A DNA stretch of 64,000 nt from an uncultured Gemmatimonadales bacterium (GTDB lineage: Bacteria; Gemmatimonadota; Gemmatimonadetes; Gemmatimonadales; GWC2-71-9): assembly GCA_963695555.1 (NCBI GenBank), contig CAVOGR010000007.1, positions 206,139 to 270,138 on the forward strand. The letters are read 5' to 3'. Every line of letters begins with the position of its first letter. The first letter of the stretch is position 1. This document shows, one piece after another, positions 44,343 through 45,960 of the stretch. The notes beneath the pieces were generated by a model. The model did not search any database. It saw only the letters and a list, made by a program, of their open reading frames with translations, and was not told the origin of the DNA. A program made the translations under genes and the position numbers.

Positions 44343-45960
44343 ATGGCTGACGTGACGGATGGAGCGGAAGGACGTGGCGCACCTCGAATCAAGCGTGACA
44401 ATTTCGTCGCGAGAATCGTGACCGACCCAGAGCGCCCGGTCGGCGCACTTGTGGTTGGCGGGTACATCGGTGACGCAGCCGAAGACTCAGCGCTGCGCAT
44501 CTACTTCGACGCTTCGCTGACCAGCTTTCTGGATATCGAGAAGCAAGACGTTCTTGCTTTCAAGGAGGTGCCCGAACGCGTCGATCCCCTGGGATCTACA
44601 ATTCTGTGGCTCGCGCGTGACGCCAGTGTGAAGTACGGCCTGACCGAGCCAAAGCCTGGTCTTGGTGCTGCAGTGACAGCCACTGTATCGGAGCCACCAC
44701 CTCCACCTCCGCCGACGGTGACACTCCCTCTGACCCCCACCTTGACAAATTATGGGGGGACCTGGGGCCCGACTCGGTCCCAGCCCAGCTGGCCGACGCA
44801 CCCGACGGTGCCCGCCGCCGACCTGGCCCACGGCAACCCACCGTGCCCACGCGGACGACGACGCCGCCGACCATGTCGCAACCGAGCTGGCCCACCCAAC
44901 CGACGGCCACCCCGCCGACCTGGCCCACGGAACCCACCGTGCCCACGCGGACGATGACGCCGCCGACCATGTCGCAGCCCAGCTGGCCCACCCAGCCCAC
45001 GGCCTCACCCCCGACCTGGCCTACGGCACCGACGATGACCCCGCCGACCATGTCGCAGCCCAGCTGGCCCACCCAGCCCACGGCCTCACCCCCGACCTGG
45101 CCTACGGCACCGACGATGACCCCGCCCACCATGTCGCAACCCAGCTGGCCCACCCAGCCCACGGCCTCACCCCCGACCTGGCCCACGGCACCGACGATGA
45201 CCCCGCCGACCATGTCGCAGCCCAGCTGGCCTACCCAGCCCACGGCCTCACCGCCGACCTGGCCCACGGCACCGACGATGACCCCGCCCACCATGTCGCA
45301 GCCCAGCTGGCCTACCCAGCCCACGGCCTCACCCCCGACCTGGCCCACGGCACCGACGATGACCCCGCCGACCATGTCGCAGCCCAGCTGGCCTACCCAG
45401 CCCACGGCCTCGCCGCCGACCTGGCCCACGGCACCGACGATGACCCCGCCGACCATGTCGCAGCCCAGCTGGCCTACCCAGCCCACGGCCTCGCCGCCGA
45501 CCTGGCCCACGGCACCGACGATGACCCCGCCCACCATGTCGCAGCCCAGCTGGCCTACCCAGCCCACGGCCTCACCGCCGACCTGGCCCACGGCGCCGAC
45601 GATGACCCCGCCCACCATGTCGCAGCCCAGCTGGCCCACCCAGCCCACGGCCTCACCGCCGACCATGTCGCAACCCAGTTGGCCCACGGAACCCACCGTG
45701 CCCACCCGCACGATGACGCCGCCCACGATGTCGCAACCCAGCTGGCCGACGCAACCGACGGCCACGCCGCCCACGATGTCACAACCCAGCTGGCCCACCC
45801 AACCAACGGCCACACCGCCCACGATGACCCCGCCGACCATGTCGCAACCGACGGTCACAATCATCCCTACGGGCCCGGGGCATTGGGGATGGGGATGGCA
45901 GTGGTGATTTGCTCTGCGGCTGAACAAGCTACCGCCGAGGCACCCATGTATCGCGCCTGA
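44343..45960 (+). CDS. repeat protein: about 100-aa N-terminal domain, Pro/Thr linker, then His/Asp/Ala-rich 27-aa tandem repeats (needs a 1-nt correction at 44834)
   Basis: GGGAGAGGA RBS. N-domain MADVTDGAEGRGAPRIKRDNFVARIVTDPERPVGALVVGGYIGD... Deleting the extra C at 44834 (CACGGCAACCC versus CACGGAACCC 90 nt later) fuses it in frame to the 44752-45960 reading, DDDPADHVAAQLAHPAHGLTPDLAHGT xN. Confidence 0.5.
45031..45678 (+). repeat. eight near-identical 81-bp tandem repeats (degenerate copies extend about 44770-45870)
   Basis: Unit starts at 45031, 45112, ... (period 81 nt). ORFs are open in three plus-strand and at least two minus-strand frames across the array. Confidence 0.9.

What the first reader, a model, noticed from the sequence alone, without database searches (positions are those of the whole stretch)
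44343..45960. 81-bp near-perfect tandem array open in six frames; codon-position G+C and a 1-nt indel point to a His/Asp-rich 27-aa repeat protein
Eight near-identical 81-bp units span 45031-45678, with degenerate copies on both sides. The possible readings are:
- + frame A: PTMSQPSWPTQPTASPPTWPTAPTMTP
- + frame B: DDDPADHVAAQLAHPAHGLTPDLAHGT
- - frame: GGVIVGAVGQVGGEAVGWVGQLGCDMV

Counting one unit by hand gives the following G+C by codon position:
- Frame B: about 24/27, 13/27 and 23/27 at positions 1/2/3. This is the normal high-GC gene profile.
- Frame A: 13/27, 23/27 and 24/27.

The upstream ORF (RBS plus MADVTDG..., a globular-looking domain of about 100 aa, then a Pro/Thr linker) is in a third frame. 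However, 44828-44840 reads CACGGCAACCC where the next repeat copy reads CACGGAACCC. Removing C44834 fuses the N-domain in frame to reading B through to 45960.

The result would be a protein of about 540 aa with about 4 His and 5 Asp per 27 residues and a hydrophobic C-terminal tail (GALGMGMAVVICSAA). It could be a metal-binding scaffold or a multi-core substrate for the neighbouring enzymes, with two Thr per unit.
Basis: partly seen in the sequence, partly recalled or inferred. Interest (0 to 1): 0.75.

Follow-up and report, generated by a model that had tools for sequence, protein, structure and literature searches.

The report
Pro/Thr/Trp repeat protein, lanthipeptide-type substrate
The 81-bp tandem array is real, but it encodes a cysteine-free Pro/Thr/Trp-rich repeat tail (not a His/Asp one) fused to a conserved 100-residue N-terminal domain, in a large undescribed protein family that always sits just upstream of a kinase–lyase–cyclase trio of the lanthipeptide type.

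Summary
The array exists: TRF finds 44950-45664, period 81, 8.8 copies, 97% match, with degenerate copies on both sides.

The His/Asp reading (frame B) is wrong.
- All 8 variable columns fall on codon position 1 of B and position 3 of the Pro/Thr frame A.
- An intact orthologue (L008, one 379-aa ORF) joins the same N-domain in frame to PT/W repeats, "SQPSWPTEPTYPTRT...", with no Cys.

In the window the gene (44343-45907) is broken by two +1 insertions, near 44812 and at 44834/5. Removing both gives a 520-aa protein, 56% identical to the orthologue (E 5e-141).

At least 8 frame breaks in the window, including one in a Thr-synthase-like gene, are single-base insertions. Assembly error is therefore the likeliest cause.

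The N-domain defines an unnamed family of 1,130 cluster representatives with no Pfam, NCBIfam or PDB match. Its C-terminal tails are long, repeated and usually Cys/Pro/Thr-rich. In 6 of 6 other loci the gene is followed by APH kinase, HopA1 lyase and LanC-like genes, as here.

Most likely it is the protein-sized substrate of that trio. This sub-branch is Cys-free, has a reduced LanC-like gene, and is joined to a radical-SAM/methyltransferase module.

The parts
44343..45907 (+). Whole gene after removing two inserted bases: a 520-aa protein made of N-domain, Pro-rich linker, Pro/Thr/Ser/Trp/Gln repeats and a Gly/Trp tail.
   Evidence: The repaired translation is 56% identical over residues 1-358 to the intact 379-aa orthologue of L008, E 5e-141. 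tblastn places the orthologue's N-domain in window frame mod 0 and its repeats in frame mod 2, which is frame A.
44343..44642 (+). Conserved N-terminal domain of about 100 aa, starting MADVTDGAEGRGAPRIKRD. It is the predicted recognition or 'leader' domain.
   Evidence: No Pfam or NCBIfam hit. P0001 is 61% identical. An exhaustive HMM search finds 1,130 representatives at E<=1e-3, nearly always with the domain at the N-terminus. The AF2 model has pLDDT 83, with one helix and six strands. No PDB fold match. An RBS, GGGAGAGG, lies 7 nt upstream.
44643..44776 (+). Linker: ...AVTATVSEPPPPPPPTVTLPLTPTLTNYGGTWGPTR.
   Evidence: It aligns with the linkers of P0001 and L008.
44777..44970 (+). Two degenerate long units (98 and 96 nt). 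Unit 1 carries the two +1 insertions, near 44809-44814 and at 44834/44835. These move reading A from mod 0 to mod 1 to mod 2.
   Evidence: Pairwise alignment of unit 1 against unit 2 shows exactly two 1-nt gaps. Three-frame translation confirms the shifts.
44950..45664 (+). Core array of 8.8 copies of 81 bp, each encoding PTMSQPSWPTQPTASPPTWPTAPTMTP in frame A.
   Evidence: TRF score 1297. The amino-acid sequence is identical in every unit in frame A. All 8 variable columns sit at mod 1, which is position 3 of frame A.
45594..45849 (+). Degenerate 48/111-nt units at the 3' end: PTMSQPSWPTEPTVPTRT..., PTMSQPSWPTQPTATP....
45850..45907 (+). C-terminal tail TVTIIPTGPGHWGWGWQW followed by the stop codon, in frame A.
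   Evidence: The tail resembles those of the orthologues: FGPAAYGWR* in L008 and YGMGYGGWR* in L009.
45974..47144 (+). APH/LxmK-like Ser/Thr kinase, with one +1 insertion at 46155. By comparison with L008, the true end is probably near 47024.
   Evidence: Pfam APH and NCBIfam LxmK hits, both below the curated cut-offs. tblastn with the L002 and L008 kinases splits the gene over two frames. Deleting one base restores it.
47006..48004 (+). HopA1-like protein, the LanY-type phospho-Ser/Thr lyase. The gene is intact.
   Evidence: Pfam HopA1, 105.8 bits against a cut-off of 22.7. It is 55% identical to P0152 of L008.
47989..48792 (+). Reduced LanC-like protein of 267 aa.
   Evidence: Weak Pfam LANC_like hit. 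Alignment with six full-length LanC-like proteins shows two internal gaps (about 110 and 40 aa) and loss of the SHG His. A similar short form occurs in L008 (open frame, with HH in place of CH) and in L009 (250 aa).
43207..44291 (+). HemK/PrmC-like N-methyltransferase directly upstream, with two +1 insertions at 43509/10 and 44184.
   Evidence: NCBIfam HemK-type hits. The same gene lies upstream of P0001 and in L008. Frame breaks were mapped.
42118..43214 (+). Radical SAM protein whose best, sub-threshold match is the YydG-type epimerase family. It has two +1 insertions at 42717/8 and 43093/4.
40163..42124 (+). B12-binding radical SAM 'RiPP maturation C-methyltransferase'. The gene is intact.
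   Evidence: TIGR03975, 421 bits against a cut-off of 281.85. It is 71% identical to the L008 orthologue.
39435..40127 (+). 230-aa protein with an Asn/Ala-rich segment and a C-terminal DUF5969. It is a second candidate substrate in the cluster.
   Evidence: Pfam DUF5969. It is 82% identical to the L008 orthologue, and the 49-residue Asn/Ala segment is 100% identical.

Best explanation
Window 44343-45907 (+) is one gene. It encodes a folded N-terminal domain of about 100 aa, a proline-rich linker, and about 395 residues of tandem repeats read in the Pro/Thr frame. The 27-aa unit is PTMSQPSWPTQPTASPPTWPTAPTMTP. The repeat region has 24 WPT motifs, is 36% Ser+Thr, and has no Cys.

In this assembly the gene is interrupted by two single-base insertions in the first repeat unit. 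These are most likely assembly errors.

The protein belongs to a large, unnamed family with a conserved N-domain and a hypervariable, repeat-rich tail. The family's gene is always followed by an APH-type kinase, a HopA1-type phospho-Ser/Thr lyase and a LanC-like protein.

Inferred mechanism:
- The N-domain serves as the recognition ('leader') module.
- The kinase phosphorylates Ser/Thr in the repeats.
- The HopA1-like lyase eliminates phosphate to give dehydroalanine and dehydrobutyrine.
- In typical Cys-rich members, LanC then closes many thioether rings.
- In this Cys-free sub-branch (window, L008, L009), where WPT replaces the family's CP[PTS] motif and the LanC-like protein is reduced, the product would be a poly-dehydrated repeat protein without lanthionines. 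It may be further modified by the co-conserved B12-rSAM C-methyltransferase, the second rSAM enzyme and the HemK-like N-methyltransferase; the conserved Gln in SQP/TQP is a candidate methylation site.

Shown here: the reading frame, gene structure, family membership, synteny and frame breaks. Inferred: the substrate role and all of the chemistry.
For: Frame:
- 8 of 8 variable columns lie at position 3 of frame A, P = 4.6e-4 for any single phase.
- The unit's amino-acid sequence is invariant in A and variable in B.
- Composition match to the family's tails: A +0.50, B -0.23, minus frame -0.03 bits/residue.
- The intact orthologue L008:6858-7997 is a single ORF running from N-domain to PT/W repeats, and tblastn places those repeats in window frame mod 2.
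- The repaired protein is 56% identical to it, E 5e-141.

Indels:
- Unit 1 against unit 2 shows two 1-nt insertions.
- Five further breaks, in rSAM2, MT and the kinase, are each repaired only by deleting one base.
- The Thr-synthase-like PALP domain is split at profile position 85, moving from mod 1 to mod 2.

Family and synteny:
- 1,130 representatives with Cys/Pro/Thr-rich repeated tails.
- The order N-domain protein, APH, HopA1, LanC-like holds in L002-L007.
- The full 11-gene cluster is conserved in L008, and its downstream half in L009.

Enzyme functions: CaoK/CaoY (an APH-like kinase plus a HopA1-like lyase) dehydrate Ser/Thr in vitro (PMC9486802). HopA1-LanC clusters have been noted as putative lanthionine synthetases (PMC8153245).
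Against: - No experimental evidence exists for expression or modification of any family member.
- The window copy is frameshifted, so it may be non-functional if the insertions are real.
- The repeat has no Cys, so the defining lanthionine chemistry cannot occur. The K/Y/C-like genes here are only 27-29% identical to those of the main family.
- The kinase hit to LxmK is far below the curated cut-off, 54 against 315 bits.
- The closest N-domain homologue, P0001, has a quite different tail that is hydrophobic and Gly/Ala/Val-rich. The tail is therefore not conserved even within the sub-branch.
- A Pro/Thr-rich tail could simply be a spacer.
- The minus-strand frame shares the position-3 signal and cannot be excluded by substitution pattern alone.
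Confidence: 0.75

Rival explanations
1. One reading: deleting C44834 fuses the N-domain to frame B, giving a protein of about 538 aa with His/Asp-rich repeats that binds metal.
For: Frame B is open from 44752 to 45960. It has the textbook G+C profile of 0.91/0.48/0.85 and the best generic codon log-odds score, 0.418. Only one edit is needed.
Against: - All 8 polymorphisms among the units are at codon position 1 of B and change the amino acid: D/H, H/Y, T/A, P/A, A/T.
- Its composition is unlike the family's tails.
- The orthologues read the PT/W frame.
- The G+C profile is explained by CCN and ACN codons read one base out of phase.
Confidence: 0.01
2. The real gene is the minus-strand ORF 45927-44596 (443 aa), with Gly/Val/Cys repeats GGVIVGAVGQVGGEAVGWVGQLGCDMV. 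This could be a proteusin-like core for the radical SAM enzymes.
For: Its third codon positions coincide with those of frame A, so the 8 variable sites are synonymous here too. It has the highest synonymous-codon score, 0.55. Gly/Val/Ala-rich cores are typical of epimerase-modified peptides (own knowledge of polytheonamides).
Against: - It runs opposite to the 12 cluster genes from 37991 to 49118 (LuxR to SdpI-like); only the α/β-hydrolase beyond them is on the minus strand.
- It has no leader and no convincing RBS.
- Its last ~180 nt would run antisense through the conserved N-domain and linker gene.
- Its composition does not match the family.
- The orthologue in L008 is called as a plus-strand fusion to the N-domain.
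- Gly/Val is simply the reverse complement of Pro/Thr codons.
Confidence: 0.02
3. The reading frame is as in the best explanation, but the frameshifts are genuine. The window carries a decaying cluster in which four consecutive genes (rSAM2, MT, the repeat gene and the kinase) have been inactivated.
For: Seven breaks are clumped in 42.7-46.2 kb, while the flanking cluster genes (p230, B12-rSAM, HopA1, LanC-like, SdpI-like, hydrolase) are intact. The insertion sites are not homopolymers.
Against: - Breaks of the same kind occur in unrelated, housekeeping-type genes: the PALP/Thr-synthase-like gene and an amidohydrolase.
- 8 of 8 localised breaks are +1 insertions. That is a one-sided bias unlike the deletion-biased natural indel spectrum in bacteria (own knowledge).
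- The broken genes are no more diverged from L008 (73-78% identity) than the intact ones (55-82%).
- The repeats show only synonymous variation.
Confidence: 0.25
4. The protein is real and read in frame A, but it is not a substrate of the trio. The Pro/Thr repeat would be an extended spacer or stalk, possibly O-glycosylated, on an N-domain that has a regulatory, immunity or scaffold role.
For: Pro/Thr-rich linkers are common in high-GC bacteria (own knowledge). There is no Cys for lanthionine. The tail is not conserved in P0001. The LanC-like protein is reduced.
Against: - The position directly upstream of the modifying enzymes is invariant in 6/6 main-family loci plus L008 and L009.
- The tails are hypervariable, while the N-domain is conserved. 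This is the classic leader/core pattern.
- The main-family tails are rich in Cys plus Ser/Thr.
- WPT and [ST]QP[ST]WPT motifs are conserved between the window and L008 despite different repeat lengths, and units are kept identical at the protein level. A mere spacer would not need this.
Confidence: 0.2

Closest known systems
Class V lanthipeptide dehydration systems: LanK APH-like kinase plus LanY HopA1-like lyase (CaoK/CaoY of cacaoidin, LxmK/LxmY of lexapeptide; PMC9486802)
   Same: An APH-family kinase gene and a HopA1-family gene lie directly downstream of a gene whose product is rich in Ser/Thr. The expected chemistry is phosphorylation followed by beta-elimination.
   Different: - Known precursors are peptides of about 50-110 aa with short linear leaders. 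Here the 'leader' is a folded 100-aa beta domain and the 'core' is about 395 aa of tandem repeats.
- There is no Cys, so no Lan or AviCys is possible.
- A LanC-like gene is present, whereas characterised class V pathways usually lack one (PMC11186320 abstract).
- The kinase scores far below the LxmK cut-off.
HopA1-LanC gene clusters noted by genome mining (Eyles et al. 2021, PMC8153245)
   Same: The enzyme combination is the same: phosphotransferase, HopA1-like protein and LanC-like protein. That paper proposed it as an uncharacterised lanthionine synthetase.
   Different: That survey looked only for short peptides near HopA1 genes. The large N-domain proteins described here were not proposed as substrates.
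Proteusins / polytheonamide-type pathways: B12-rSAM C-methyltransferases, rSAM epimerase and a HemK-like Asn N-methyltransferase (own knowledge; TIGR03975)
   Same: The upstream half of the cluster encodes a TIGR03975 C-methyltransferase, a second rSAM with its best match to YydG-type epimerases, and a HemK-like N-methyltransferase.
   Different: The N-domain is not an NHLP or Nif11 leader. The epimerase match is sub-threshold. These enzymes may instead act on the 230-aa Asn/Ala-rich protein rather than on the repeat protein.
Multi-core repeat RiPP precursors, such as cyanobactins, fungal Kex-processed precursors and plant burpitides (own knowledge)
   Same: A recognition region is followed by many tandem copies of a short motif kept identical at the protein level.
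   Different: No protease sites are evident between the units. The units may never be released, so the product may be a modified protein rather than many peptides.

Membership tests
Unnamed 'N-domain + repeat tail' family next to the kinase/HopA1/LanC trio | Homology of the ~95-aa N-terminal domain | tested here: met
   A profile of the window plus P0001 retrieves 1,130 representatives at E<=1e-3 and 277 at E<=1e-10, with the domain at the N-terminus. Identity to the window is 26-40%.
Unnamed 'N-domain + repeat tail' family next to the kinase/HopA1/LanC trio | Gene immediately followed by APH kinase, HopA1-like and LanC-like genes on the same strand | tested here: met
   Window: 45974-48792. 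Other loci: 6 of 6, L002-L007.
Unnamed 'N-domain + repeat tail' family next to the kinase/HopA1/LanC trio | Cys-rich tail (median 9% Cys) with CP[PTS] motifs | tested here: not met
   The 395-residue tail has 0 Cys and 24 WPT motifs instead. In the family, 39% of Cys are followed by Pro. Only 4 of 116 tails are Cys-free, and most of those look like broken gene calls.
Class V lanthipeptide system | HopA1-like (LanY) lyase | tested here: met
   PF17914, 105.8 bits against a cut-off of 22.7.
Class V lanthipeptide system | LxmK/LanK-type kinase | tested here: inconclusive
   NF038156 scores 54 bits against a cut-off of 315. Pfam APH scores 22.3 against 23.2. The gene is frameshifted.
Class V lanthipeptide system | Precursor core with Ser/Thr and Cys that gives Lan/MeLan or AviCys | tested here: not met
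   Ser+Thr make up 36% of the tail, but there is no Cys.
Class V lanthipeptide system | Dehydrated or thioether-bridged product | not testable with these tools
   This needs mass spectrometry of the expressed protein.
Proteusin (polytheonamide-type) precursor | NHLP or Nif11-type leader | tested here: not met
   No NCBIfam or Pfam hit for the N-domain protein. The predicted fold is a small beta domain.
Proteusin (polytheonamide-type) precursor | Cluster encodes an rSAM C-methyltransferase of the TIGR03975 type | tested here: met
   421 bits against a cut-off of 281.85.
Proteusin (polytheonamide-type) precursor | PoyD/YydG-type rSAM epimerase | tested here: inconclusive
   TIGR04078 is the best hit, but at 63-68 bits against a cut-off of 300.

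The most novel reading that the evidence does not exclude
The N-domain proteins are not peptide precursors. They are protein-sized substrates (tails of 100 to more than 1,000 residues) that stay intact and are converted by the kinase/HopA1/LanC trio into densely cross-linked or dehydrated repeat proteins. This would be a ribosomal 'lanthi-protein' material, widespread in Acidobacteriota, Verrucomicrobiota and other soil lineages.

The window would represent a Cys-free offshoot. Here about 24 WPT/SQP units are dehydrated and then C-methylated, N-methylated or epimerised by a recruited proteusin-type module, giving a new kind of modified polymer.
Probability: 0.3. Interest if true: 0.85.

Novelty: new variant of a known kind. 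Interest (0 to 1): 0.62.

Why it matters
Published mining for kinase/HopA1-type (class V-like) RiPP clusters has deliberately looked only at short ORFs: under 110 aa in PMC9486802, and short peptides in PMC8153245. If the interpretation here is right, a family of more than a thousand sequence clusters of much larger, repeat-bearing substrates with a folded recognition domain has been overlooked.

Testing is direct. Co-express one N-domain protein with its three neighbours and look for -18 Da steps. A positive result would extend lanthipeptide-type chemistry from peptides to proteins.

The finding is also a practical warning. In Pro/Thr-rich repeats of high-GC genomes, G+C-by-codon-position and generic codon scores pick the wrong frame. 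The phase of polymorphisms between units, and orthologues, pick the right one.

Tried and rejected
- Pfam and NCBIfam on the N-domain and on ten family members: no hits.
- A word-indexed protein search with the N-domain found only P0001. The exhaustive HMM search was needed.
- Genome and metagenome scans using patterns from the window/P0001 pair found nothing. The broad alignment A3 was too diverse to search with. A tighter subgroup worked.
- Exact look-ups of window proteins, aimed at finding an independent assembly of this locus, failed. The indels could therefore not be checked against other reads.
- Foldseek of the N-domain model against the PDB gave no significant match: best E 0.11, TM <= 0.37.
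- A codon-usage Viterbi segmentation was too noisy to count frameshifts, and it chose frame B for the repeat. I rejected it as a frame test.
- Substitution patterns cannot separate frame A from the minus frame, because the third positions coincide. That choice rests on context and orthology.
- I considered a third frameshift that would join frame A to the frame-B tail (GALGMGMAVVICSAA...). I rejected it because the frame-A tail matches the orthologues' Gly/aromatic tails.
- NHLP/Nif11 leader search in the 230-aa protein: nothing.
- No sigma-70-like promoter or terminator flanks the gene.
- Six literature searches found no description of these large substrates. The library is limited to open-access papers and bioRxiv.
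Full report

Yes, in the main. Tandem Repeats Finder reports an 81-bp array at 44950-45664 with 8.8 copies, 97% matches, no indels and a score of 1297. It is flanked by degenerate 96/98-nt units (44777-45030) and 48/111-nt units (45594-45849). So are the hand-counted G+C values by codon position: B = 0.91/0.48/0.85 and A = 0.48/0.85/0.91.

'Open in six frames' is an overstatement. Only +mod1 (B), +mod2 (A) and one minus frame are fully open.

**2. Which frame is translated?**

I laid the eight full units in register. There are 8 variable columns and all fall at coordinate mod 3 = 1. That is codon position 3 of frame A (Pro/Thr) and of the open minus frame, but position 1 of frame B. 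The chance of all 8 sharing any one phase is 4.6e-4.

As a result the 27-aa unit PTMSQPSWPTQPTASPPTWPTAPTMTP is identical in every copy in frame A. Frame B varies between copies: D/H, H/Y, T/A, P/A.

Generic codon scores and the G+C profile favour B and the minus frame. This is a composition trap, because CCN and ACN codons put G+C at position 2.

**3. Gene structure**

The upstream ORF starts at ATG 44343, has an RBS, and begins MADVTDG. After its Pro-rich linker it already reads SQPSWPTHPTVP, which is reading A.

Aligning the first long unit (98 nt) with the second (96 nt) shows exactly two 1-nt insertions. One is near 44809-44814 and the other is at 44834/5. These move reading A from mod 0 to mod 1 to mod 2.

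Deleting that one alone freezes the gene in reading B. Deleting both gives one 520-aa ORF, 44343-45907.

**4. Orthologues settle the frame**

A search with the window's intact HopA1-like protein led to L008, a 15.5-kb metagenome contig. It carries the same cluster with intact genes: LuxR, a 230-aa protein, B12-rSAM, rSAM2 (369 aa), MT (363 aa), a 379-aa protein, APH, HopA1, a short LanC-like frame, SdpI-like and an alpha/beta-hydrolase.

The 379-aa protein is one uninterrupted ORF. It runs from the same N-domain through a linker into Cys-free repeats such as 'PTQSQPSWPTEPTYPTRTVPTWPTEPTYPTRT', and it ends FGPAAYGWR*. tblastn places its repeats in window frame mod 2, which is frame A. The repaired window protein is 56% identical to it over residues 1-358, E 5e-141.

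A third source (L009-L011) has the end of a similar gene, '...QSLPTQSLPTYSLPT...YGMGYGGWR*', followed by APH, HopA1, a 250-aa LanC-like gene, SdpI-like and a hydrolase.

The window's frame-A tail GPGHWGWGWQW* fits these tails.

**5. Are the frameshifts real?**

Using the intact L008 proteins as probes, the window shows these frame breaks:

| Gene | Number of breaks | Position(s) |
|---|---|---|
| rSAM2 | 2 | 42717/8, 43093/4 |
| MT | 2 | 43509/10, 44184 |
| Kinase | 1 | 46155 |
| Repeat gene | 2 | near 44812, 44834/5 |

The MT's C-terminal frame was independently confirmed against the gene upstream of P0001.

The breaks are not limited to this cluster. A Thr-synthase-like PALP domain is split at profile position 85 between ORFs 32122-32973 and 32600-33355. 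An amidohydrolase at 26966-28327 is also broken.

All eight localised breaks are +1 insertions, and their contexts are not homopolymers. Three observations point to assembly or read error rather than decay:
- The bias is one-sided, and the breaks also hit housekeeping-type genes.
- The broken genes are no more diverged from L008 than the intact ones.
- The repeat shows purely synonymous variation.

I put artefact against genuine pseudogene at roughly 3:1. Without independent reads this cannot be settled. Exact-sequence look-ups found no second assembly.

**6. What is the protein?**

The N-domain has no Pfam or NCBIfam match. One close relative exists: P0001, 61% identical, with the same MT gene upstream and a different, hydrophobic tail in a genuinely coding frame.

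An exhaustive profile search found 1,130 cluster representatives at E<=1e-3 and 277 at E<=1e-10. The domain sits at the N-terminus of proteins of 80-1,200 aa. Ten members scanned had no curated family, and their only source names were 'hypothetical protein'.

AlphaFold2 on a 47-sequence alignment gives a confident small domain with one helix and six strands. Mean pLDDT is 83, and above 90 for residues 31-100. There is no significant PDB neighbour.

The family's tails are long and often tandemly repeated. Their composition is P 15%, G 11%, A 10%, T 9.5%, C 9.1%. 39% of Cys residues are followed by Pro, and the top tripeptides are CPP, CPT and CPS.

**7. Context**

In every locus examined the N-domain gene is followed directly by APH-kinase, HopA1-like and full-length LanC-like genes. 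These loci are L002, L003, L004, L005, L006 (a Bryobacterales MAG) and L007 (a Verrucomicrobiia MAG).

The window has the same order: 45974-47144, 47006-48004 and 47989-48792.

APH-like kinase plus HopA1-like lyase pairs are the experimentally shown Ser/Thr dehydratase of class V lanthipeptides (CaoK/CaoY; PMC9486802). About 20% of HopA1-like genes were already noted to lie next to LanC-like genes, but that survey examined only short peptides as substrates (PMC8153245). The class V mining study considered only ORFs under 110 aa.

Six full-text searches found no description of large substrates of this kind.

**8. Mechanism (inferred)**

The pattern of a conserved N-domain, a hypervariable tail, and a position directly upstream of the modifying enzymes is the leader/core logic of RiPPs, scaled up to protein size.

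For typical members I infer this sequence:
- The kinase phosphorylates Ser/Thr in the tail.
- The HopA1-like lyase eliminates the phosphate.
- LanC adds the many Cys thiols, forming thioether rings.

The window's sub-branch (window, L008, L009) differs in four ways:
- Its tail has no Cys, and WPT appears where the family has CP[PTS] (24 motifs in the window, 12 in L008).
- Its LanC-like protein is reduced to about 250-267 aa. It lacks about 150 residues and the SHG histidine, and in L008 it also lacks the CH pair.
- Its kinase and lyase are only 27-29% identical to those of the main family.
- The cluster has gained a TIGR03975 B12-rSAM C-methyltransferase, a second rSAM, a HemK-like N-methyltransferase and a 230-aa protein.

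The likely product is therefore a dehydrated repeat protein without lanthionines, possibly methylated or epimerised. Which of the two candidate substrates the rSAM/MT module serves is open. The gene order (p230, then rSAM, rSAM, MT, followed by the N-domain protein, then K, Y, C') suggests one substrate per module. However, the MT gene also precedes P0001.

**9. Verdict**

The locus is a divergent, Cys-free member of a large family of protein-sized candidate substrates for a kinase/HopA1/LanC trio. As far as I could find, that family has not been described.

Noticed in passing
window 39435-40127 (+); L008:2023-2715: A 230-aa protein has a helical N-terminal part, an Asn/Ala-rich segment and a C-terminal DUF5969. 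The segment, 'KVAIALALANAVALANAAANANAAANANAGANANAGANANTNTNTSGVG', is 100% identical between the window and L008, while the rest of the protein is about 80% identical. It lies directly upstream of the B12-rSAM, rSAM and HemK-like MT genes and resembles a polytheonamide-like (Asn-ladder) core. No NHLP or Nif11 leader was detected. The ORF list shows it fused to an upstream receiver-like ORF starting at 38853, but the L008 orthologue aligns only from 39435.
   Followed up: partly
window 26966-33355 and 42700-46160: There are at least eight single-base frame breaks, all +1 insertions at non-homopolymer sites, clumped in two stretches. They affect an amidohydrolase, two PALP enzymes, rSAM2, the MT, the repeat gene and the kinase. 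Long genes elsewhere, such as 22178-24841, 24883-26973 and 40163-42124, are intact. The pattern suggests locally error-prone assembly.
   Followed up: partly
L002-L007; proteins P0002-P0150: The main family has tails of up to about 1,100 residues built from Cys/Thr/Pro motifs such as 'GCPRTSTCPPT', 'CPTFGFTCTYVHCPP', 'ATVCTQIGC' and 'GWQGCGQPHISLPGCIHTGTC'. Its genes are always next to full-length kinase/HopA1/LanC genes, including in Bryobacterales and Verrucomicrobiia MAGs. These are candidate multi-lanthionine proteins with no annotation anywhere.
   Followed up: partly
window 47989-48792; L008:~10030-10820; L009:2219-2971: A reduced LanC-like protein of 250-267 aa is conserved in the Cys-free sub-branch. 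It lacks the SHG histidine and about 150 residues. The Cys/His zinc ligands are only partly kept: CH in the window, HH in L008. Its role without a thiol substrate is unclear.
   Followed up: partly
window 48795-49118 (+) and 49126-50700 (-): An SdpI-like small membrane protein and a 524-aa alpha/beta-hydrolase are conserved in synteny with the cluster in L008 and L009. They could serve in immunity and in processing or release.
   Followed up: no
window 51885-52295: An intergenic stretch of about 1.3 kb with no coding signal holds runs of a 7-nt GAGT[GA]AG repeat and two 93-nt direct repeats that are 91% identical and 129 nt apart.
   Followed up: no
window 33578-36376: Three plus-strand ORFs (248, 406 and 233 aa) lie in the lowest-G+C part of the window (0.576, against about 0.65 elsewhere), just upstream of the cluster. 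They were not examined and could mark an island boundary.
   Followed up: no
L001 / P0001: The closest N-domain homologue (61% identical, with the same MT upstream) carries no Pro/Thr repeat. Its 60-residue Gly/Ala/Val/Leu-rich hydrophobic tail is in a genuine coding frame (GC3 0.92). The tail is therefore swapped even between close relatives.
   Followed up: partly
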